A stretch of 44,112 nt of DNA, taken from IMG/VR virus record IMGVR_UViG_3300029558_000015, positions 1 through 44,112 of that record, one strand, 5' to 3'. This DNA comes from a virus. Each line of letters begins with the position of its first letter. Position 1 is the first letter of the stretch. A program made the translations under genes and the position numbers. Shown in pieces: positions 11,036-18,336 of this stretch. Under the pieces are notes generated by a model. That model was given only the letters and a program-made list of their open reading frames with translations. It did no database searches and had not been told where the DNA came from.

Positions 11036-12166
11036 ATGAAATGTATCAGATGCCATGTAAGCATTCCAGACAAGGCCTTATTTTGCCCGTGGTGCGGAAA
11101 GCAGCAGGGTGCAACGTCCGCTCCCGTGCATAGAAAAAAGCGCCGCCGCCCAAAGGGCAGCGGTAGCGTGTACAAGCTGAAAGGGGTCCGGGCAAGGCCC
11201 TATGTAGCCGTGACCGGGAAAAAGGAAGTGCTGGGCACATACGGAACGCCCGGGGAAGCCGTCCAGGCGCTTGACGCATACAACGCCCAGAACACCCCGG
11301 CAGAGCGTCTGAAGTGTACTTTTGCGGATGCCTACGAAAAATGGCGGGCACAGCCGAAGTTTTCAAGTCTCAGCCGGGACATGATAAATGGATACGAGCT
11401 GGCTTTCAAAAAAGCCGCTCCGCTGTACAGCCGACAAATGCGAGACCTGAAAGCGGAGGACTATCAGCAGATCATAGACCAAATGGTCGCAGACGGTCTC
11501 TCCCGCAGCTCGTGTGAGAAGCAGCGCACCCTTTTCAGCCAGCTATGTGAGTGGGCAATGGCCCAGGACATCATTAACAAGAACTATGCCCAGCTCCTTC
11601 ACCTTCCCGCCGCAGCCGGAAAGGCAGAGCGTACCCTTACGGCGGACGAGATTGCCCGGATCAGCGCCTACCAGACCGACAAGCGCTTTGGTCAGACAGC
11701 GCAGATTGCTATGGTGCTTCTCTATACAGGAATGCGCATCGATGAGCTGCTCTCCATGCGCTGCGAGAACGTGTACCTGAAAGAGCACTATATGCAGGGC
11801 GGTGAAAAAACGGAAGCGGGCAAAAACCGCATCATCCCCATTCTCGACCCCATTTACAAGATCATCGCCTTCTGGATGATGGACAGCGGGTGCGAGTGGC
11901 TGATACCTTCCAAGGCTGGAACGAAACTGGACAAGAGAAACGTGGCCACGAAGTTTCGGGCCTTGATGCAGGAGTGCCAGATCGATGGCGTGCACCCGCA
12001 CACCCTTCGCCACACGGCCAGCAGCAAGATGGTGGAGTGCGGTCTTGAAAAGACCGCCGTGCAGGCTATCCTCGGCCACAAAAATTTTTCCACCACAGCA
12101 AACAAGTACGTTTCCCACAACGACCCGACATACTTGTTACAGGAGATGCAAAAAATGAAATACTGA
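11036..12166 (+). CDS. int: Tyrosine site-specific integrase with N-terminal zinc ribbon
   Basis: C-terminal catalytic region HTLRHTASSKMVE...ILGHKNFSTTANKYVSH. N-terminus CIRCHVSIPDKALFCPWCG. AAAGGAG RBS. Confidence 0.93.
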   Translation: MKCIRCHVSIPDKALFCPWCGKQQGATSAPVHRKKRRRPKGSGSVYKLKGVRARPYVAVTGKKEVLGTYGTPGEAVQALDAYNAQNTPAERLKCTFADAYEKWRAQPKFSSLSRDMINGYELAFKKAAPLYSRQMRDLKAEDYQQIIDQMVADGLSRSSCEKQRTLFSQLCEWAMAQDIINKNYAQLLHLPAAAGKAERTLTADEIARISAYQTDKRFGQTAQIAMVLLYTGMRIDELLSMRCENVYLKEHYMQGGEKTEAGKNRIIPILDPIYKIIAFWMMDSGCEWLIPSKAGTKLDKRNVATKFRALMQECQIDGVHPHTLRHTASSKMVECGLEKTAVQAILGHKNFSTTANKYVSHNDPTYLLQEMQKMKY

Positions 12167-12231
12167 TTTTGTTAGCCTGTTTGTTAGTTTATTCCGGATT
12201 ATTATCGTTTTTTGCCGTGTTTTCACAAAAG

Positions 12232-12278
12232 AAAATGCCGTTCATGTGATTTAATATCACGAATGAACGGCATTTTTT
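12232..12278 (+). terminator. Terminator hairpin after int
   Basis: AAAATGCCGTTCATGTGAT tta ATCACGAATGAACGGCATTTTTT (one 2-nt bulge), flanked by A and T runs. Confidence 0.75.
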
Positions 12279-12327
12279 GGAGCTAGTGACAGGAGTTGAA
12301 CCTGCAACCCACTGATTACAAATCAAT
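12278..12327 (-). other. attP core: 3' 50 nt of a tRNA-Thr(UGU) gene (anticodon arm to CCA), not a complete tRNA
   Basis: Minus strand reads ATTGA TTTGTAA TCAGT GGGTT GCAGG TTCAACT CCTGT CACTAGC T CCA. No D arm or 5' acceptor strand lies upstream. It is next to int. Confidence 0.75.
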
Positions 12328-12442: not shown

Positions 12443-12781
12443 TCAACGCATGTATGCGGAGCGTTCTTTTGTAACAGCTTCGCACAGGCCGGAAACAAGG
12501 TCTTCCGCCATGCTCCACATGTGATGCAGCTCTACGCCAGCCGCAGAATCCTCACTATCAACGCCGGTAAGGATTTTCTGTGCAATGCGGCGGTTTGCAT
12601 CGGCGTGCTCCATTTCTTCCCCAGAGAGCTTGTACCACTCAGAAGAAGCATAGGGACAGACGTTTTTGTATTCCATCGCCATGCTTGCGTAATTCATCGC
12701 GTCGCTGTACTCTTCGGCCATTTGCTTTGCAGCATGAACGAGTGTGTCCTTATACCCTGCAAATTTTGCTTCGTCCATCAT
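12443..12781 (-). CDS. Helical hypothetical protein (112 aa), last gene of the accessory cassette
   Basis: ATG at 12781 lies 8 nt after AGGAGG. The sequence looks predominantly helical. Family not recognised. Confidence 0.55.
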   Translation of the reverse strand: MMDEAKFAGYKDTLVHAAKQMAEEYSDAMNYASMAMEYKNVCPYASSEWYKLSGEEMEHADANRRIAQKILTGVDSEDSAAGVELHHMWSMAEDLVSGLCEAVTKERSAYMR

Positions 12782-12797
12782 AACCAAATCCTCCTTT

Positions 12798-13199
12798 TTA
12801 CAGCTTCTCCACGGTCACAGCCAGGTTGTTCACCACGGCAGCAGTTCCGGTCAGCAGGAAGCTCAGGATAGAGCTTTCGCAGCCGCACGCATTGCGCACC
12901 AGGAAAGTCAGTGCCAGATTGGTCGGTGCAGCCGCAGTGGCCACAGCCTGAGAAGCGGTAGCGCCGATGACAGCCACGCCGTCCTTCTGGCCGGTCAGGG
13001 TCACAGTGCCTGCAGCCGTGGGAGCCAGTGTAGCGGACACGGTCACATGGTAGTAGCCCTGACCCAGCAGGGTGATGGTGTTGCCGTCCTGCCGGATGTT
13101 GCAGCCGAATCGCCGGGAAGTGATGCCGGCAGGGATAACGTCGTTTACCGCCACGGTCTGAGCCGAGGTGTTTGCGGTATAAATCGCGGATTTAGACAT
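12798..13199 (-). CDS. BclA C-terminal-domain-like (TNF/C1q-type jelly-roll) protein, no collagen region (133 aa)
   Basis: GQGYYHVTVSATLA, VTLTGQKDGVAVIGAT and the terminal LAVTVEKL parallel BclA-CTD GFYKITVIANTA, LTIQVNGVPVPGT and IIIEKVA. AAAGGAGA RBS. Confidence 0.5.
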   Translation of the reverse strand: MSKSAIYTANTSAQTVAVNDVIPAGITSRRFGCNIRQDGNTITLLGQGYYHVTVSATLAPTAAGTVTLTGQKDGVAVIGATASQAVATAAAPTNLALTFLVRNACGCESSILSFLLTGTAAVVNNLAVTVEKL

Positions 13200-13215
13200 A
13201 AAATATCTCCTTTCT

Positions 13216-13251
13216 TATATAAAAAGGCGGAGCAGCCTTTGCCGCCCCGCC
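13216..13251 (-). terminator. Imperfect GC-rich hairpin plus TTTTTATATA between cassette genes
   Basis: GGCGGGGCGGCAAAGGCTGCTCCGCC followed by a T-run on the minus strand. Confidence 0.5.
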
Positions 13252-13276
13252 GATCCTCGCCAAAAGGGCGTATGTG

Positions 13277-13921
13277 TTAGATGTTACCGCAGCCGTTGCT
13301 GCAGCCACAGAAGGGGCTCGGGCCAGCATTGTAGGAGTAGCCGTTGGGATACCGGACTACGCCATACATCTGAGTCTGAAGCTCCAGCTGGCTGATCCGC
13401 TGGTTCTGTGCAGCGATAGTCTGCTCATACTGCTGCTTCTGGAGCTCGGCAAACTTCGCGTCAATGTTGGAGTTGATCGCACAGGTCTGCTTGTCCATCT
13501 GGGCTGCCAGGTTGGCAGTCGCCAGCCGGTTGTCGCAGCAGCACTGAGCAAGCTGTGCCTGGATGCCGTTGCCGGTCTGCAGGATGGCGGTATTGGTGCC
13601 CGCCTGAGCCAGAGCAACTTCCTTGCCCAGCTGGTCGATGTTGCCCTGCATCGCGTAGCCGAGATTGCAGATGCCGTCGCCAATGTTGGTCAGCCTGTCG
13701 TTCAGCTGGCCGAACTGCTGGCCGAAGAGGATTTCCTGCTGGCTTGCCGCAGTGGCATACTGGCCGTACTCGCCGGTGCGGTTGCCCCAGAGGCCGCCGT
13801 TGCCGCCCATAAAGACGAACAAAAAGAGGATGATGATCCACCACGCGCCACCCTGGCCCCATCCGTCGTTATCGTTGCCACGGGTCACGGCAGCGATATC
13901 GCTCAAAGACATGTTATCCAT
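13277..13921 (-). CDS. Membrane protein with YjcZ-like Gly-rich/hydrophobic N-terminus, Q-rich coiled coil and Cys-rich C-terminus (214 aa)
   Basis: GQGGAWWIIILFLFVFMGGNGGLWG, long Q/N-rich helical region, CCC motif, C-terminus FCGCSNGCGNI. Confidence 0.55.
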   Translation of the reverse strand: MDNMSLSDIAAVTRGNDNDGWGQGGAWWIIILFLFVFMGGNGGLWGNRTGEYGQYATAASQQEILFGQQFGQLNDRLTNIGDGICNLGYAMQGNIDQLGKEVALAQAGTNTAILQTGNGIQAQLAQCCCDNRLATANLAAQMDKQTCAINSNIDAKFAELQKQQYEQTIAAQNQRISQLELQTQMYGVVRYPNGYSYNAGPSPFCGCSNGCGNI

Positions 13922-13981
13922 AGTTGATTTCCTTTCTTGAGAATAGTGAAATTATTTCAAATCGTGGCCACGATTTTTCGA

Positions 13982-14209
13982 TTACTTAATGAAAGGCATG
14001 ATCTGCCTTGCCATCGCTTCCAGCTGGTGGTACTGCTCATCCGTCATCTTGCCGGACTTGCGGAGCTGCTCCACCTGCTGCTTGGCATCGCCCTGAAAAG
14101 CAGACCGGAACTGCTGAAAGCTTTGGAGAAGCTGCATCACATTGCCCATCGGGCCGGGCATCGCCGGGCTTCCTGAGCCGCCCAGGAACTGCATCAAAGG
14201 ATTTGCCAT
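13982..14209 (-). CDS. Hypothetical protein (75 aa)
   Basis: AAAGGAGGG RBS. Coupled to the upstream gene. Confidence 0.55.
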   Translation of the reverse strand: MANPLMQFLGGSGSPAMPGPMGNVMQLLQSFQQFRSAFQGDAKQQVEQLRKSGKMTDEQYHQLEAMARQIMPFIK

Positions 14210-14212
14210 ACC

Positions 14213-14662
14213 TTAACCCTCCTTTGCCCGTGCGGGCCTTGCAGGAGCCGCCGGGGCTGTCTGATACTGCGCCATCACGCGCTCCACCTCGGCCTTTACG
14301 GCAGCCTGTATCTTCTGATCTGCCTGCGCAGAAGTCAGATACTGCGTCTCTGCCGGTGTCTGCATCGCTGCCGGGTCGATCTTTGTCAGGCGGTAGTACT
14401 CGCCGGACGCATAGCCCATCGTGTCTGCCTTTTTGACAGCCATGACAGGCTCGTTTTGCACCATGATCCAGCGCGTTTCGCCGGGCTGTACCATGACCTT
14501 GTCCACGTCTGCGATGGTTGGCACCATTGTGAAGGGACTTTGTCCCCCGCTCTGTGGAGCGGCCTGCTGGGCCATTTGCTGCTGATACTGGCCTTGCCCA
14601 AAGCCCATCGGTGACATCCCACTGTAAGGGTTCGATTGCCAGCCGCCAAAAGGATATGCCAT
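14213..14662 (-). CDS. Protein with G/Q-rich low-complexity N-terminus (149 aa), first gene of the cassette
   Basis: ATG at 14662 follows AAGAAAGGA. The N-terminus is MAYPFGGWQSNPYSGMSPMGFGQGQYQQQMAQQ. The longer ORF to 14830 would cover the promoter region. Confidence 0.55.
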   Translation of the reverse strand: MAYPFGGWQSNPYSGMSPMGFGQGQYQQQMAQQAAPQSGGQSPFTMVPTIADVDKVMVQPGETRWIMVQNEPVMAVKKADTMGYASGEYYRLTKIDPAAMQTPAETQYLTSAQADQKIQAAVKAEVERVMAQYQTAPAAPARPARAKEG

Positions 14663-14712
14663 AAAGCTTCCCCGTCCTTTCTTGATCTTGTAGCACCAGT
14701 GTACCTCTCCCG

Positions 14713-14752
14713 TATATCCTGAGTGCGCAAGGAGAGTGCAAAGAGTGCGCAA
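14713..14752 (-). promoter_or_regulatory. Candidate promoter TTGCAC-17-GATATA for the cassette, overlapped by three direct repeats GAGTGC(GC)AA
   Basis: Hexamers at 14736-14741 and 14713-14718 (minus sense). Repeats at 14721-14730, 14734-14741 and 14743-14752 (plus-strand reading). Confidence 0.45.
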
Positions 14753-14767
14753 ATTTTCAAAAAAGTC

Positions 14768-14796
14768 TTGACATTTGCACGCAATGCGTGTATAAT
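14768..14796 (+). promoter_or_regulatory. Consensus sigma-70 promoter TTGACA-17-TATAAT
   Basis: Perfect hexamers with a 17-nt spacer, back to back with the cassette promoter. Confidence 0.8.
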
Positions 14797-15644: not shown

Positions 15645-16256
15645 ATGCCGCCGAAGAAAAATCACATCGGGGAAAAACACGGGACGCTTGAAGTCATCGC
15701 AGAGGCCCCATCAAGAAAAAGTAAGTCCGGAAACTGGCTAACCTGCTGGAGAGTGCGCTGCTCTCATTGCGGATGCGAAAAAATTATGCTTTGGGGAAGC
15801 ATCCGGAACGCAAAATCGTGCGGGTGCATCAAAGTGACAGATGTGCCAAAGGAATGCACCTGTAAAAGATGTGGAAAATCTTTTACAGGAAATATGTTTA
15901 CCGTTTACTGCCCAGAATGCAAAGAAGTCATAAAAGAGTTGCACGGCGTAAAAGGGAACTCGTGTTTTTCTTTTGAAACGGTATGTATTGACTGCGGCGC
16001 GCATTTTGTTGCAGGTTCAAAAAAAGCTCTCCGATGCCCTGAGTGTAGAAAAAAGGCCAAAAGAGAAAGCAATCGTCTTTGTGCTCAGAGACGAAAAAAC
16101 GGGACGGCAAGAAGGCTTGGAGAAGTATACTCGTGTGCTGACTGTGGGAAGCCTTTTATCTTAAAAAATGGATTTCAAAAGTACTGCCCAGACTGTGAGC
16201 CGAAGCACGCCATACAATCGTGGAAAGAGTATAAGGAAAAATACGCAAAAAAGTAA
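15645..16256 (+). CDS. Cysteine-rich protein with three tandem zinc-ribbon modules (203 aa)
   Basis: CKRCGKSF..YCPECK, CIDCGAHF..RCPECR and CADCGKPF..YCPDCE. N-terminal G.L.VI....W.CxC.CGC motif. Confidence 0.7.
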   Translation: MPPKKNHIGEKHGTLEVIAEAPSRKSKSGNWLTCWRVRCSHCGCEKIMLWGSIRNAKSCGCIKVTDVPKECTCKRCGKSFTGNMFTVYCPECKEVIKELHGVKGNSCFSFETVCIDCGAHFVAGSKKALRCPECRKKAKRESNRLCAQRRKNGTARRLGEVYSCADCGKPFILKNGFQKYCPDCEPKHAIQSWKEYKEKYAKK

Positions 16257-16299
16257 AAATCCCCGGTGCTCCGCATGGATAGAGCACCGGGGATTTTTA
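16257..16299. terminator. Bidirectional rho-independent terminator between convergent genes
   Basis: 13-bp stem ATCCCCGGTGCTC / GAGCACCGGGGAT flanked by an A-run and a T-run. Confidence 0.8.
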
Positions 16300-16470
16300 T
16301 GTGTTCGATTCAAGTGCGGAAAGCACCACTTTCAGGTGATAGCATACAGCCCTACGGCTGTAATGCGTCTGTGCTGCAATGTCCGGCAACGGGAGCCGCT
16401 CAACGTACCGCAAAAGAGCTATCTTTCGGTCTACCCTCCCAAGCGGTGCGCTCTTGATAGCGGTGGCCAT
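16297..16470 (-). CDS. Small sigma-70 region-4-like HTH protein (57 aa)
   Basis: RKIALLRYVERLPLPDIAAQTHYSRRAVCYHLKVVLSAL. ATG lies 10 nt after the upstream stop. The RBS is weak. Confidence 0.45.
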   Translation of the reverse strand: MATAIKSAPLGRVDRKIALLRYVERLPLPDIAAQTHYSRRAVCYHLKVVLSALESNT

Positions 16471-16480
16471 CCCCTGTCGG

Positions 16481-16696
16481 TCAAGTCCTTGCAGCGCAGG
16501 GGGCAGCACTACACGAGCCGCCGCCACAGGCAGCACCGAGCCAGAAGGGCTGCGGCAACTGTCCGGCGTTGCGCACCATATTGCCAATGGCGGCAAAATG
16601 GTTGGGTCTCACGATTTTGTTAACGTCAACAAAATGGTGACATTTTGTCACCGTTTCGCCATAACCGGCAAAATGGTCGTATGTAGTGCTTGCCAT
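16481..16696 (-). CDS. Protein with three tandem HF-x8-V repeats (71 aa)
   Basis: AAGGAGGATATC then ATG at 16696. Repeats are DHFAGYGETV, HHFVDVNKIV and NHFAAIGNMV. The C-terminal half is low complexity. Confidence 0.5.
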   Translation of the reverse strand: MASTTYDHFAGYGETVTKCHHFVDVNKIVRPNHFAAIGNMVRNAGQLPQPFWLGAACGGGSCSAAPCAART

Positions 16697-17045: not shown

Positions 17046-17418
17046 GATTGGTAACTCCTTTCAGAAGATAGTTGTCGATTTCGGTGCGGCTTTTCTGCAT
17101 CCCTTCGCGGTTGTTGCCGGACAACTGCGCATCCAGAAGGTTGCGCACCCCGTCGAGGGTCAAACGGTTCACTTCATCGATTTCTTCAAAGCGGCGCAAG
17201 TCACGGGCAAGGGCCTGCGTGTGTTGAAGCTGGCCCTGCTCTAAGGTGCCGATGCGCTTGTCCAGCTCATCCAGCCGTTTATTCTGCGCATTGTCTGGGG
17301 CCTGTGCCTTTTTGATGTACTTGTGGATGATTTCCAGCACCTTGTCGATGGTGATGGCCGCAGCGCACAGGCTGCCCAGGATGCCAAGCACCCACAGCAA
17401 AGCTTCTTTTTCGGTCAT
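17029..17418 (-). CDS. Membrane-anchored coiled-coil lysis-module protein (129 aa)
   Basis: TM LLWVLGILGSLCAAAITI followed by a coiled coil. Lies between the endolysin and holin. Confidence 0.45.
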   Translation of the reverse strand: MTEKEALLWVLGILGSLCAAAITIDKVLEIIHKYIKKAQAPDNAQNKRLDELDKRIGTLEQGQLQHTQALARDLRRFEEIDEVNRLTLDGVRNLLDAQLSGNNREGMQKSRTEIDNYLLKGVTNHGSDS

Positions 17419-18200
17419 TTGCCCTCCCGGAGACGGGTCAGGCCCTTCTTGCGGATGATACGGGGGTAATTGACGGTGGTCACGTTAAGGTCAACGTTGC
17501 CGGAGATGCCCGGCACAGAGCCCTTGCTGGTGTGCTGGTGGGCGTTGTAGTGGTATCCAACGGCGGGAGTGTGTCCGGTTGTATCGGACAGCCAGACATC
17601 CCAACGGCTTGCCAAGCGGCCCATGTCCAGTTCCATGTTGGAGTAGTGGGTGTAGGTGTACAGCTGGGCATAAAAACCCATCTTTTCCACCTGTTCCAGC
17701 GCATAGGCGGTGAGGTTGGTGAGGTCGAGGGTGCTCATGGGCTTGAGCTTGTTTTCCTCCACGTCCACCGCGATGGGCATGGTCAGCTCCTTGCCGTAGA
17801 CCGCCTGCCGCACAAGGGCAAGCTCTGCATCGGCCATCGCTTCACTGGTGGCGTAAGTGTAGTAGTAGACACCCACGTCCAGCCCGGCAGCCTTTGCGTT
17901 GCGGTAGTTGGTCTCAAAGGTCGGGTCGATGTACAGGCCGTCTGCCCGCTTGGAGAGCTTGCGGTTGGTGGAGACCGTCTTGAGCATGGCCCCCTTGTAG
18001 CCCGCCGCTGCCACCTGCGCCCAGTCGATTTCGCCCTGATACCGGCTCACGTCAATGTACCGGTAGGGCGGTTTCCCTGCCCAGCCGGTCACGGTGTCCA
18101 CAGTGGGCACGTCCGGTGCAGGAGCAGGCTCTTTCTTGTCGGCACTGTTACCGGCAGCATGAGAGAGCGCAGAGAAGATATCCCGCAAGAAGTCAAGCAT
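17415..18200 (-). CDS. Endolysin, glycoside hydrolase family 25 muramidase
   Basis: IDVSRYQGEIDWAQVAAAGYKGAMLK ... GVYYYTYA. ATG at 18200 follows GAGGTGGAAAGTG. Confidence 0.88.
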   Translation of the reverse strand: MLDFLRDIFSALSHAAGNSADKKEPAPAPDVPTVDTVTGWAGKPPYRYIDVSRYQGEIDWAQVAAAGYKGAMLKTVSTNRKLSKRADGLYIDPTFETNYRNAKAAGLDVGVYYYTYATSEAMADAELALVRQAVYGKELTMPIAVDVEENKLKPMSTLDLTNLTAYALEQVEKMGFYAQLYTYTHYSNMELDMGRLASRWDVWLSDTTGHTPAVGYHYNAHQHTSKGSVPGISGNVDLNVTTVNYPRIIRKKGLTRLREGK

Positions 18201-18336
18201 CACTTTCCACCTCATAAAAACCCTCCTCCGTCAGCTTTTTCATCACGGCATCCTTATACCGGTCAGGTACGTTGTCGATGGTAAAAGCGCCGTCAAAGCG
18301 GTGCAGCTTGATTTGTGTCACATAGAACAGAACCAT
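18193..18336 (-). CDS. XkdX-like small protein (47 aa)
   Basis: AAGGAGGATACT then ATG at 18336. Size and position match PBSX XkdX. Confidence 0.45.
   Translation of the reverse strand: MVLFYVTQIKLHRFDGAFTIDNVPDRYKDAVMKKLTEEGFYEVESDA

What the first reader, a model, noticed from the sequence alone, without database searches (positions are those of the whole stretch)
12443..14760. Self-promoted five-gene cassette with spore-surface-like proteins between the lysis module and attP
A separate minus-strand unit has its own candidate promoter, overlapped by three GAGTGC(GC)AA repeats. It encodes:
- a G/Q-rich low-complexity protein
- a 75-aa protein
- a membrane protein whose N-terminus resembles YjcZ-type sporulation peptides (GGAWWIIILFLFVFMGGNGG), followed by a Q-rich coiled coil and a CGCSNGCGNI tail
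- a collagen-less BclA C-terminal-domain-like jelly-roll protein
- a helical 112-aa protein
Its position at the prophage end is typical of lysogenic-conversion cargo. Phage-borne exosporium or coat-like surface proteins would be an unusual conversion function. An alternative is an unrecognised virion or host-surface-modifying module.
Basis: inference. Interest (0 to 1): 0.62.

Follow-up and report, generated by a model that had tools for sequence, protein, structure and literature searches.

The report
Regulator-controlled stalk-and-knob gut-phage operon
The five genes are real, but they are one copy of a gene module shared by thousands of gut phages, switched on by the phage's own small regulator and built around a membrane-anchored cysteine-rich rod protein and a BclA/C1q-like protein; its role is unknown and a spore-surface "conversion" role is unlikely.

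Summary
Observation confirmed. Five tightly packed minus-strand genes (12443-14662) lie between the lysis genes and a tRNA-Thr-type attP in a complete 44-kb temperate phage. Gene 4 is a distant, collagen-less BclA C-terminal-domain homologue. Gene 5 is ferritin-like. The YjcZ likeness fails its profile test.

The cassette is not sporadic cargo. Genes 1-4 recur in fixed order in over 80 genome loci and 466 IMG/VR contigs. They sit next to attP, inside head-gene clusters, after tail genes or among early genes, nearly always behind a small sigma-70-region-4-like regulator.

In this phage that regulator is the last gene of the lysis operon. The cassette promoter has a conserved -10 but no -35. In 15 related phages the box type follows the regulator's recognition helix and not the cassette genes. 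Expression is therefore probably activator-dependent and very late in lytic growth.

Cysteines in the tail of gene 3's protein co-vary with cysteines in the downstream partner, suggesting a linked stalk-and-knob complex. None of the five proteins has an N-terminal signal-peptide-like sequence.

Function is unknown.

The parts
14721..14752 (-). Three direct boxes TTGC(GC)ACTC, with starts at 14752, 14741 and 14730 (11-bp phasing). The promoter-proximal box covers the -35 region. Proposed binding sites of the sigma-r4-like regulator.
   Evidence: Searches give the positions. One search shows that relatives carry the same boxes or an alternative pair, TTCGTTGT, also 11 bp apart. Searches show that box type follows the regulator's recognition helix in 15 loci, with no exception.
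14698..14703 (-). -10-like hexamer TACACT, about 36 nt upstream of the g1 start codon. No -35 consensus lies 16-19 nt upstream of it.
   Evidence: relatives have TACACT, TAAAAT, TAAACT, TAGACT or TAGGAT at the same place although the flanks differ; the consensus scan finds no complete sigma-70 promoter here.
14213..14662 (-). g1, 149 aa. It has a disordered G/Q/P/Y-rich N-terminus, a small alpha/beta core (residues 41-100) and a C-terminal amphipathic helix.
   Evidence: 60-member family alignment. AlphaFold mean pLDDT 80, with the core at about 90 or higher; no significant PDB fold match (best E 0.15); 25 BFVD matches at E<=0.001, nearly all proteins of uncultured phages with no or only generic names.
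13982..14209 (-). g2, 75 aa. Small helical protein (MxNPL...GNP...LLNSGxxSQxQxNQ family), translationally coupled to g1.
   Evidence: phrog_22984, E 3.8e-10; 43-member alignment; HMM 3.4e-15.
13277..13921 (-). g3, 214 aa, the signature protein of the module. It has a short N-terminal helix and a Gly/Trp-flanked hydrophobic helix (residues 25-38). A long helical rod follows, with the nearly invariant QLAQCCCDNR motif. The C-terminus is a Pro-rich stretch ending in the tail FCGCSNGCGNI.
   Evidence: Q123, L124, A125 and C127-C129 are at least 90% conserved in 71 sequences. AlphaFold gives helices 25-38 and 99-186 with low overall confidence; phrog_16490, E 5.8e-18; more than 7,700 clusters, all unnamed; the flanks of the hydrophobic segment are almost free of K/R, and the N flank is never more positive than the C flank.
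13226..13251 (-). Intrinsic-terminator-like hairpin with a T run between g3 and g4 (an intra-operon attenuator).
   Evidence: -23.5 kcal/mol, no shuffle folds as well; a comparable hairpin with a T run lies between g3 and its partner in 19 of 49 BclA_C-type loci.
12798..13199 (-). g4, 133 aa. Stand-alone BclA C-terminal-domain-like protein with no collagen repeats, no N-terminal targeting region and no signal peptide. Cysteines at C33 and C104-x-C106.
   Evidence: BclA_C E 0.0035, covering profile positions 2-126 of 128. (top five PDB hits are BclA). (13 of 59 family members match BclA_C, best 1.3e-6; no other Pfam family). (624 clusters; one is named 'BclA protein' by NCBI).
12443..12781 (-). 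g5, 112 aa. Short ferritin-like helical protein with conserved E24 ... E56-x-x-H59. This is the variable fifth position of the module.
   Evidence: alignment. (family profile against M. tuberculosis ferritin BfrB, E 1.4e-4, aligning helix A Glu and helix B ExxH). (5 of 13 members hit Rubrerythrin, best 7.7e-4). (only 8 representatives at 50% clustering).
12225..12281 (-). Strong hairpin with a U run just beyond the attP core. It is the likely end of the cassette transcript in the unintegrated phage.
   Evidence: -26.9 kcal/mol, z -5.5. (inverted match at 12232-12276).
12277..12327 (-). attP core: the 3' part of a tRNA-Thr gene, not a complete tRNA.
   Evidence: 86-88% identity to annotated tRNA-Thr genes. 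(ARAGORN finds no complete tRNA here). (relative L098 is integrated next to host smpB, while L097, L099 and L100 show the same junction joined to the integrase).
16300..16596 (-). Small sigma-70-region-4-like HTH regulator. This is the maximal ORF; the likely start is ATG 16470 or an upstream GTG. It is the last gene of the lysis operon. Its recognition helix is YSRRAVCYHLK.
   Evidence: Sigma70_r4_2, E 0.0049. (HMM of the module's regulator family, E 2e-3). (it follows the holin and a 71-aa ORF without a gap). (co-variation with box type). (a regulator of this kind lies within 3.5 kb upstream of g1 in 83 distinct loci).
16254..16299 (-). Terminator of the late/lysis operon, directly after the regulator gene.
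   Evidence: 19-pair stem. (-33.2 kcal/mol, z -8.7). In relatives L115 and L116 the boxes follow this terminator directly. In the window, 1.5 kb of plus-strand genes lies in between.

Best explanation
The cassette is one copy of a widespread, self-contained gut-phage module. The module consists of a small sigma-70-region-4-like activator and an operon of four conserved genes plus a variable fifth.

Proposed circuit:
1. The late/lysis operon ends with the activator gene and a strong terminator.
2. The activator binds 11-bp-phased boxes that replace the -35 element of the cassette promoter.
3. It thereby turns on g1-g5 at the very end of lytic development.
4. A hairpin after g3 lowers expression of g4 and g5.

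Proposed product:
- g3 inserts its Gly/Trp-flanked hydrophobic helix into the cytoplasmic membrane and forms an oligomeric helical rod, held together at the invariant CCC ring.
- The BclA/C1q-like protein g4 is presumably a trimer. This rests on homology with BclA; oligomerisation was not tested.
- g4 docks on the cysteine-rich C-terminal tail of g3 through cysteines, either as disulfides or as a shared metal site.
- g1, g2 and the ferritin-like g5 are cytoplasmic accessory or assembly factors.
- None of the five proteins has a signal peptide, and the g3 anchor lacks a basic N flank. The complex is therefore most likely assembled on the cytoplasmic face of the membrane and exposed only at lysis.

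Status of the steps:
- Shown here: gene content, conservation, synteny, mobility of the module, homology of g4 and g5, promoter anatomy, and the two co-variations.
- Inferred: activation by the regulator, late timing, membrane topology, and g3-g4 contact.
- Unknown: the biological role. My best guess is an envelope-associated function at or just after lysis, such as masking receptors on debris, excluding superinfecting phage, or aiding release.
For: Conservation and synteny:
- The order regulator, (Cys-His-Asp protein), g1, g2, g3, g4-type, fifth gene holds in 80 genome loci.
- There are 466 or more IMG/VR hits and more than 7,700 protein clusters for g3.

Mobility of the module as a block:
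- att-proximal after the lysis genes.
- In an early region.
- After the major capsid gene.
- After tail genes.
- Between the minor head protein and the scaffold.
- 12-22 kb from the integrase in 16 of 39 genomes.

Regulation:
- No sigma-70 promoter is found.
- The -10 is conserved and the boxes are phased at 11 bp.
- Box type A goes with recognition helix YSRRAVCY in 6 loci. Type B goes with (S/C)RT(A/S)(I/V)G in 9 loci. No locus is mixed.
- L111 has a g1 identical to the window's, yet carries type B boxes and a type B regulator.
- The regulator follows the holin and a 71-aa ORF without a gap and precedes a -33 kcal/mol terminator.

Architecture:
- g3 has a hydrophobic helix plus an 88-residue helix and an invariant CCC.
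- The g3 tail has two or more Cys in 50 of 51 loci with a BclA_C-type partner and in 11 of 11 with the Cys-rich c8 partner.
- With the Cys-poor c13 partner, only 2 of 8 loci have such a tail, and those two have the partners with two Cys.
- g4 is homologous to BclA_C. g5 is ferritin-like.
Against: - No expression data exist.
- The regulator's own match to sigma-70 region 4 is below Pfam's threshold.
- The co-variations involve related phages and are not independent samples.
- The g3 model is of low confidence (pLDDT 59), and no multimer prediction was possible.
- The positive-inside signal is weak, because both flanks are almost uncharged. Topology is therefore open.
- Cysteine-rich stalks would suit an extracytoplasmic, disulfide-bonded structure at least as well.
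- 35 of 41 near-complete genomes with the module carry an integrase, so a role in lysogeny is not excluded.
Confidence: 0.5

Rival explanations
1. Lysogenic-conversion cargo. The prophage expresses the cassette in the lysogen, possibly in the sporulating mother cell, to add exosporium- or coat-like proteins to the cell or spore surface.
For: - The cassette is att-proximal, lies after the lysis genes and is insulated by terminators in this phage.
- g4 is BclA_C-like.
- None of the five proteins has a signal-peptide-like N-terminus. From my own knowledge, coat and exosporium proteins are likewise assembled in the mother-cell cytoplasm.
- g3 and g4 are Cys-rich.
- Host-lineage genomes that carry the module (Dysosmobacter, Oscillibacter, Lachnospiraceae) encode SpoIVA.
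- Most carriers are temperate.
Against: - The module has a fixed order and is embedded in head, tail or early gene blocks in many phages, far from att.
- Its composition is the same as the phage's.
- The promoter lacks a -35 and appears to depend on an activator encoded at the end of the lysis operon.
- The YjcZ model does not match.
- g3-centred relatives occur in genomes without SpoIVA.
- Six of 41 near-complete carrier genomes have no integrase.
Confidence: 0.12
2. Virion accessory structure. g3 and g4 form a stalk-and-knob fibre that decorates the capsid or tail and binds host or mucosal ligands, like the TNF-like knobs of other viral spikes.
For: - The module sits inside head-gene clusters in several clades.
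- All five proteins lack signal-peptide-like N-termini, so like virions they would assemble in the cytoplasm.
- Late timing is inferred.
- The rod-plus-jelly-roll architecture is that of viral receptor-binding fibres (established knowledge: PRD1 P5, adenovirus fibre).
Against: - g3 has a strongly hydrophobic, membrane-type helix (mean Kyte-Doolittle hydropathy 2.0 over 15 residues in 71 sequences).
- The module also occurs among early genes and beyond the lysis genes.
- A dedicated transcription factor is unusual for a decoration protein.
- This phage already has a full siphovirus structural set.
- g4 has no paralogue among the tail genes.
Confidence: 0.15
3. Lysis or egress accessory. g3 acts like an i-spanin or a fusion-protein-like membrane disruptor that completes envelope breakdown or remodels membranes at lysis.
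For: - The cassette directly follows endolysin and holin genes in many loci.
- The regulator ends the lysis operon.
- g3's layout (N-terminal hydrophobic helix, coiled coil, cysteines) resembles i-spanins.
- The g3 family profile weakly matches the fusion-peptide/helix-A region of influenza HA2 (E about 0.01). It also weakly matches a torovirus spike segment (E 0.13).
Against: - Most labelled hosts are Clostridia, which as a rule have no outer membrane.
- None of g1, g2, g4 or g5 begins with a lipoprotein-type signal sequence.
- The phage already has a holin and an endolysin.
- In many phages the module is far from the lysis genes.
- The HA2 and spike hits are marginal and could reflect composition alone.
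Confidence: 0.12
4. Defence, counter-defence or toxin module, for example abortive infection or a bacteriocin released at lysis.
For: - The module is mobile and self-regulated and sits at module boundaries.
- Some versions carry Cys-His-Asp and HExxH enzyme-like genes.
Against: - I did not scan the PADLOC defence library, so a defence-family match remains untested.
- The core proteins are low-complexity or structural-looking and have no recognisable effector domain.
- Strict five-gene synteny across deep divergence is more typical of an assembled structure.
Confidence: 0.05

Closest known systems
BclA C-terminal domain (Pfam PF18573; PDB 1wck, 2r6q, 3twi) of the Bacillus exosporium nap, a C1q/TNF-like trimeric jelly roll
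   Same: - g4 aligns over its whole length to the BclA_C profile.
- Its best PDB sequence matches are all BclA.
- Like BclA it has no signal peptide.
   Different: - g4 has no collagen-like repeats and no N-terminal exosporium-targeting region.
- It is a 133-aa stand-alone protein encoded by a phage, next to a membrane protein.
- Its score is below Pfam's gathering threshold.
Ferritin / rubrerythrin superfamily (e.g. M. tuberculosis BfrB, PDB 3qd8)
   Same: The g5 family profile aligns to ferritin helices A and B, with the helix A Glu and the helix B ExxH conserved.
   Different: - g5 is only about 100-112 aa.
- The second half-site (helices C and D) is not conserved.
- It is below Pfam thresholds.
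- It is the least conserved, replaceable position of the module.
Small stand-alone region-4/LuxR-type HTH regulators such as B. subtilis GerE, and sigma-70 region 4 itself
   Same: - Size (about 57-85 aa).
- A region-4-like HTH.
- Binding sites inferred to overlap the -35 position of a promoter that keeps only a -10.
   Different: - It is encoded by a phage at the end of its lysis operon.
- It has no regions 2 or 3, so it is not a sigma factor.
- The Pfam match is sub-threshold.
- DNA binding has not been tested.
- The GerE parallel is recalled from memory, not tested.
Phage morons / lysogenic-conversion cassettes (e.g. toxin genes beside attP in streptococcal and staphylococcal prophages)
   Same: - An independent transcription unit with its own promoter region and terminators.
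- It is inserted at module boundaries.
- It is att-proximal in this phage.
   Different: - It has five to eight genes in conserved order across thousands of phages.
- Its composition matches the phage.
- Its promoter is activator-dependent and tied to the late operon.
- It is often embedded in head-gene clusters.
Two-component spanins (lambda Rz/Rz1) and class I viral fusion proteins
   Same: g3 has an N-terminal hydrophobic helix, a long coiled-coil-like rod and functionally conserved cysteines. Its profile gives marginal matches to HA2.
   Different: - There is no lipoprotein partner.
- The hosts are mostly monoderm.
- There is no C-terminal membrane anchor.
- The profile similarity is not significant.

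Membership tests
BclA_C (PF18573) | Sequence match to the family profile at or above Pfam's gathering score | tested here: not met
   17.6 bits against a cut-off of 38 (E 0.0035), although the match covers profile positions 2-126 of 128. 13 of 59 family members reach E<=0.01, best 1.3e-6.
BclA_C (PF18573) | Detectable homology to solved BclA C-terminal domains | tested here: met
   By phmmer against PDB the five best hits are all BclA (E 2.7e-4 to 3.7e-3), covering 90-100 residues.
BclA_C (PF18573) | TNF/C1q-like jelly-roll fold forming a trimer | not tested
Earlier notes of this scan report such a fold for homologues; I did not check that.
BclA-type exosporium glycoprotein (full protein) | N-terminal targeting region followed by collagen-like GXX repeats | tested here: not met
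   g4 is 133 aa, starts directly with the C-terminal-domain homology (query residue 7 aligns to profile position 2) and has no GXX repeats.
YjcZ / tiny_TM_bacill (TIGR01732) | Match to the family model | tested here: not met
   No NCBIfam hit for g3 at E<=5. TIGR01732 finds nothing in the six-frame window at E<=10; only one of the 14 control genomes scored over the family's cut-off.
Ferritin-like superfamily | Profile similarity to ferritins with conserved helix A Glu and helix B Glu-x-x-His | tested here: met
   The family profile matches BfrB at E 1.4e-4. E24 is invariant, and E56 and H59 are at least 90% conserved. Five of 13 members match Rubrerythrin.
Ferritin-like superfamily | Complete four-helix di-iron site (second Glu and second ExxH) | tested here: not met
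   The protein is only 100-112 aa, and no second conserved ExxH appears in the alignment. A site shared between two subunits cannot be excluded.
Sigma-70 family sigma factor | Regions 2 and 4 both present | tested here: not met
   Only a region-4-like HTH of about 57-99 aa is present (Sigma70_r4_2 E 0.0049). A family representative scores Sigma70_r4 8.6e-5, 22.4 bits against a cut-off of 24.1.
Moron / lysogenic-conversion cassette | Own promoter and terminator, located at a module boundary | tested here: met
   Terminators at 16299-16254, 13251-13226 and 12281-12225, and a promoter region at 14698-14752.
Moron / lysogenic-conversion cassette | Expressed from the repressed prophage | not testable with these tools
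Promoter anatomy argues against it.
Moron / lysogenic-conversion cassette | Sporadic distribution, often with deviating composition | tested here: not met
   The synteny is conserved in 80 genome loci and there are 466 or more IMG/VR hits. G+C is 0.56 against 0.55-0.60 for the neighbouring late genes.
Two-component spanin | i-spanin partnered with an outer-membrane lipoprotein, in a diderm host | tested here: not met
   None of g1, g2, g4 or g5 begins with a lipoprotein-type signal sequence. Integrated relatives lie in Oscillospiraceae and Lachnospiraceae genomes.

The most novel reading that the evidence does not exclude
The module builds a phage-encoded, membrane-seeking stalk-and-knob spike. 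A split rod-plus-jelly-roll device resembles TNF ligands or class I fusion glycoproteins (a hydrophobic Gly-rich N-terminal segment, a coiled coil with a cysteine ring, and a separately encoded receptor-binding-type head). It is made only in the last minutes of infection under a private region-4-like activator and released at lysis. It would then act on membranes or surfaces outside the dying cell. Possible actions are coating debris or vesicles, fusing or tethering membranes, or marking neighbouring cells. This would be a new class of phage post-lysis effector.
Probability: 0.1. Interest if true: 0.9.

Novelty: categorically new. Interest (0 to 1): 0.6.

Why it matters
A five-to-eight-gene module with its own regulator is conserved in thousands of phages of the dominant anaerobes of the human and animal gut. 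It moves as a block between unrelated phage backbones. It has no described function and no cultured-phage representative in GenBank phage records. Whatever it does is evidently useful to very many gut phages.

- a candidate activator;
- its candidate 11-bp-phased operator boxes;
- two specificity classes, in which recognition-helix residues co-vary with box sequence.

Together these give a simple route to switching the operon on in a heterologous host and seeing what is built. If the timing inference holds, it would also define a "post-late" transcription class in temperate Clostridia phages.

Tried and rejected
- Pfam, PHROGs and NCBIfam scans of all five proteins gave only sub-threshold or "unknown function" hits.
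- Family-profile searches against PDB sequences gave nothing significant:
  - g1: nothing significant.
  - g3: only marginal HA2 hits, E about 0.01, treated as a lead and not as homology.
  - The pooled g4 family lost the BclA signal, because two unrelated partner types had been mixed.
  - The Cys-His-Asp protein and the Cys-rich c8 partner: nothing.
- The AlphaFold model of g3 alone was too poor (pLDDT 59) for a fold search.
- The g1 model is good but has no PDB neighbour. The SH2-like topology is not significant (E>=0.15).
- tblastn of g3 against 50,697 GenBank phage records found only unannotated faecal contigs and one weak Vibrio-phage hit.
- Three literature searches found no description of the module. 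The one paper on isopeptide anchoring of BclA that surfaced is retracted and was not used.
- I tried to settle whether full cassettes occur in true Bacteroidales. Two MAGs labelled Bacteroidales that carry them have neither SpoIVA nor any SusD homologue, so their labels are doubtful and the point stays open.
- A 210-aa g3-g4 chimera (P0097) is an internal deletion product seen once. It is not a Rosetta-stone fusion.
- A generic search for phased repeats upstream of g1 in distant loci was too noisy to extend the box analysis beyond the close clade.

Full report
**What is there.** The window is a complete 44,112-bp virus record with direct terminal repeats. Its layout is that of a temperate siphovirus:
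- Structural genes lie on the minus strand from about 38.9 kb down to 18.3 kb.
- A GH25 endolysin (17415-18215) and two holin-like genes follow.
- A tyrosine integrase (11036-12166, plus strand) and an HTH repressor-type gene complete the set.
- Between the integrase and the cassette lies the 3' part of a tRNA-Thr gene (12277-12327), which is the attP core.

The five ORFs of the finding are all present with good ribosome-binding sites and near-contiguous spacing. HMMs built from relatives recognise four of them strongly. The three GAGTGC(GC)AA repeats are real, and their starts are exactly 11 bp apart.

**What the proteins are.**
- *g4.* It matches Pfam BclA_C end to end but below threshold. 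Its five best PDB sequence hits are all BclA. BclA_C is the only Pfam family hit by its 59 relatives (13 members, best 1.3e-6). It has no collagen repeats and no signal peptide.
- *g5.* It belongs to a small family whose profile matches ferritin BfrB (E 1.4e-4). The ferroxidase-type Glu and Glu-x-x-His of helices A and B are conserved, but there is no second half-site.
- *g3.* It has one very hydrophobic helix flanked by Gly and Trp, a long helix and a nearly invariant QLAQCCCDNR motif. Its family exceeds 7,700 clusters at 90% identity. None carries a Pfam domain, and the only name given is "hypothetical protein".
- *g1.* It has a disordered Y/Q/P-rich head, a confidently modelled small alpha/beta core and a C-terminal helix. 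The fold has no significant PDB neighbour. It recurs in 25 BFVD models at E<=0.001, nearly all of them proteins of uncultured phages labelled Sipho-, Myo- or Podoviridae.
- *g2.* It is a small helical protein of phrog_22984.
- *YjcZ.* The likeness proposed for the g3 N-terminus fails both profile tests.

**It is a conserved, mobile module, not cargo.** Around 80 genomic g3 homologues the same order recurs:
1. a small sigma-70-region-4-like HTH gene;
2. often a 126-aa protein with invariant Cys, His and Asp;
3. g1, g2 and g3;
4. a small beta-rich partner, either BclA_C-like or one of two other types;
5. a variable fifth gene (g5-like, an Arg/Gly/Tyr-rich helical protein, or DUF7841).

The block occupies different places in different phages:
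- after the lysis genes and next to att, as here; relative L098 is integrated beside host smpB;
- among early genes;
- directly after the major capsid gene;
- after tail genes in a contig from a MAG labelled Paludibacteraceae;
- between the minor head protein and the scaffold.

IMG/VR gave at least 466 confirmed hits. Of 41 near-complete carrier genomes:
- 26 have a tyrosine integrase;
- 9 have a serine integrase;
- 6 have neither.

g3 lies within 4 kb of the integrase in 21 of 39 genomes and 12-22 kb away in 16. The cassette's G+C content equals that of the phage.

*Insulation from the late operon.* The late operon runs holin, 71-aa ORF, region-4-like regulator, and ends in a -33 kcal/mol terminator. 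A further bidirectional terminator (15105-15063) and 1.5 kb of plus-strand genes separate it from the cassette. The cassette therefore needs its own promoter.

*Promoter anatomy.* The consensus scan finds no such promoter on the minus strand. Aligning the upstream regions of relatives shows:
- a conserved -10 (TAnnnT; TACACT at 14703-14698 here);
- no -35;
- direct repeats phased at 11 bp.

The repeats are either TTGC(GC)ACTC (type A, as in the window) or TTCGTTGT (type B). The promoter-proximal box overlaps the -35 region.

*Co-variation with the regulator.* Box type tracks the regulator's recognition helix without exception in 15 loci:

| Box type | Recognition helix | Loci |
|---|---|---|
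| A | YSRRAVCY(H/R)L | 6 |
| B | (S/C)RT(A/S)(I/V)G(Y/N)RLK | 9, counting the more distant L097 |

It does not track g1. L111 has a g1 identical to the window's but type B boxes and a type B regulator. L115 and L116 have a g1 only 52% identical but are type A.

*Inference.* In L115 and L116 the boxes follow the regulator's terminator directly. The window's plus-strand genes therefore look like an insertion into a compact regulator-terminator-promoter unit. I infer a delay circuit: the last gene of the late operon activates the cassette. The samples are related phages, so the co-variation is suggestive and not proof.

**Architecture of the product (inferred).**
- None of the five proteins has a signal peptide.
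- The flanks of the g3 anchor are almost free of Lys and Arg, and the N flank is never more positive than the C flank (0 of 71). This weakly favours the rod lying in the cytoplasm.
- The cysteine content of the last 20 residues of g3 follows that of the downstream partner:

| Partner type | Loci whose g3 tail has two or more Cys |
|---|---|
| BclA_C-type (c2) | 50 of 51 |
| Cys-rich (c8) | 11 of 11 |
| Cys-poor (c13) | 2 of 8 |

  The two c13 loci with a Cys-rich tail are the ones whose partners have two Cys. This fits a cysteine-mediated contact between tail and partner.
- A hairpin with a T run between g3 and its partner recurs in 19 of 49 loci. This suggests controlled stoichiometry.

**Spore link.** Genomes of the window's host lineage that carry the module (a Dysosmobacter MAG, Oscillibacter sp. 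ER4) and Lachnospiraceae JLR.KK009 encode SpoIVA. Host biology therefore does not exclude a sporulation link. Relatives of the module also lie in genomes where SpoIVA was not found (Paludibacteraceae, Anaerovoracaceae and Erysipelotrichaceae MAGs, and two doubtful "Bacteroidales" bins). MAG incompleteness and mis-binning limit this argument.

**Verdict.**
- The "conversion cargo with spore-surface proteins" reading is only partly right.
- The best-supported picture is an autonomous, activator-controlled, probably very late operon that builds a membrane-anchored, cysteine-linked stalk-and-knob complex of unknown role.
- Earlier follow-ups in this scan reached a similar description on other genomes. 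I re-derived it here independently.

Noticed in passing
window 16300-16695 (minus strand); L119:4129-4554: The 71-aa ORF after the holin (16695-16481, with HF-x8-V repeats) overlaps, in another frame, the conserved N-terminal extension of the regulator (…VVLPPALQGLDRQ…). In relative L119 the HF-repeat part is fused in frame to the HTH part (…HFAVLGTMVRNAGQLPDIAAQTHYSRT…). The regulator may therefore be a two-domain protein in some phages. In the window it may be split, frameshifted or made by recoding.
   Followed up: partly
window 13959-13976: A perfect 18-bp palindrome, AAATCGTGGCCACGATTT, lies between g2 and g3. As RNA it folds weakly (-5.2 kcal/mol, no better than shuffles), so it is more likely a protein-binding site than a terminator.
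   Followed up: partly
L148:6851-7693; L107:11117-12151; L106:11121-11879: In other phages the gap between g3 and its BclA-like partner holds an inserted HNH endonuclease, a DNA methylase or a 252-aa gene. This intergenic spot, a terminator hairpin in the window, is a recurrent insertion site.
   Followed up: partly
L036:1719-2099 and 25 relatives (alignment A6): Many versions of the module include a 126-aa protein (phrog_3754) with invariant Asp-Cys, His and Asp, like a papain- or transglutaminase-type triad. It has no Pfam or PDB sequence match. It is absent from the window.
   Followed up: partly
protein P0097 (210 aa, metagenome contig of 36.6 kb): A natural or assembly-derived chimera joins g3 residues 1-111 to g4 residues 37-133, deleting the rod and the tail. 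It was seen only once.
   Followed up: no
genomes G056 and G057 (loci L058, L071): Two MAGs labelled Bacteroidales carry the full Firmicutes-type cassette on contigs of 64 and 77 kb. They have no SusD homologue and no SpoIVA, so their taxonomic labels, or the binning of these contigs, look unreliable.
   Followed up: partly
window 14768-14796 (plus strand): A perfect TTGACA-17-TATAAT promoter for the divergent acidic 89-aa gene lies 16 bp from the outermost cassette box. The two promoters are back to back and could be co-regulated.
   Followed up: no
g3 family profile (alignment A1), positions 42-122: The profile gives dozens of marginal hits (E 0.008-0.045) to the fusion-peptide plus helix-A region of influenza haemagglutinin HA2. 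This may be compositional (a Gly-rich hydrophobic segment followed by a polar coiled coil).
   Followed up: no
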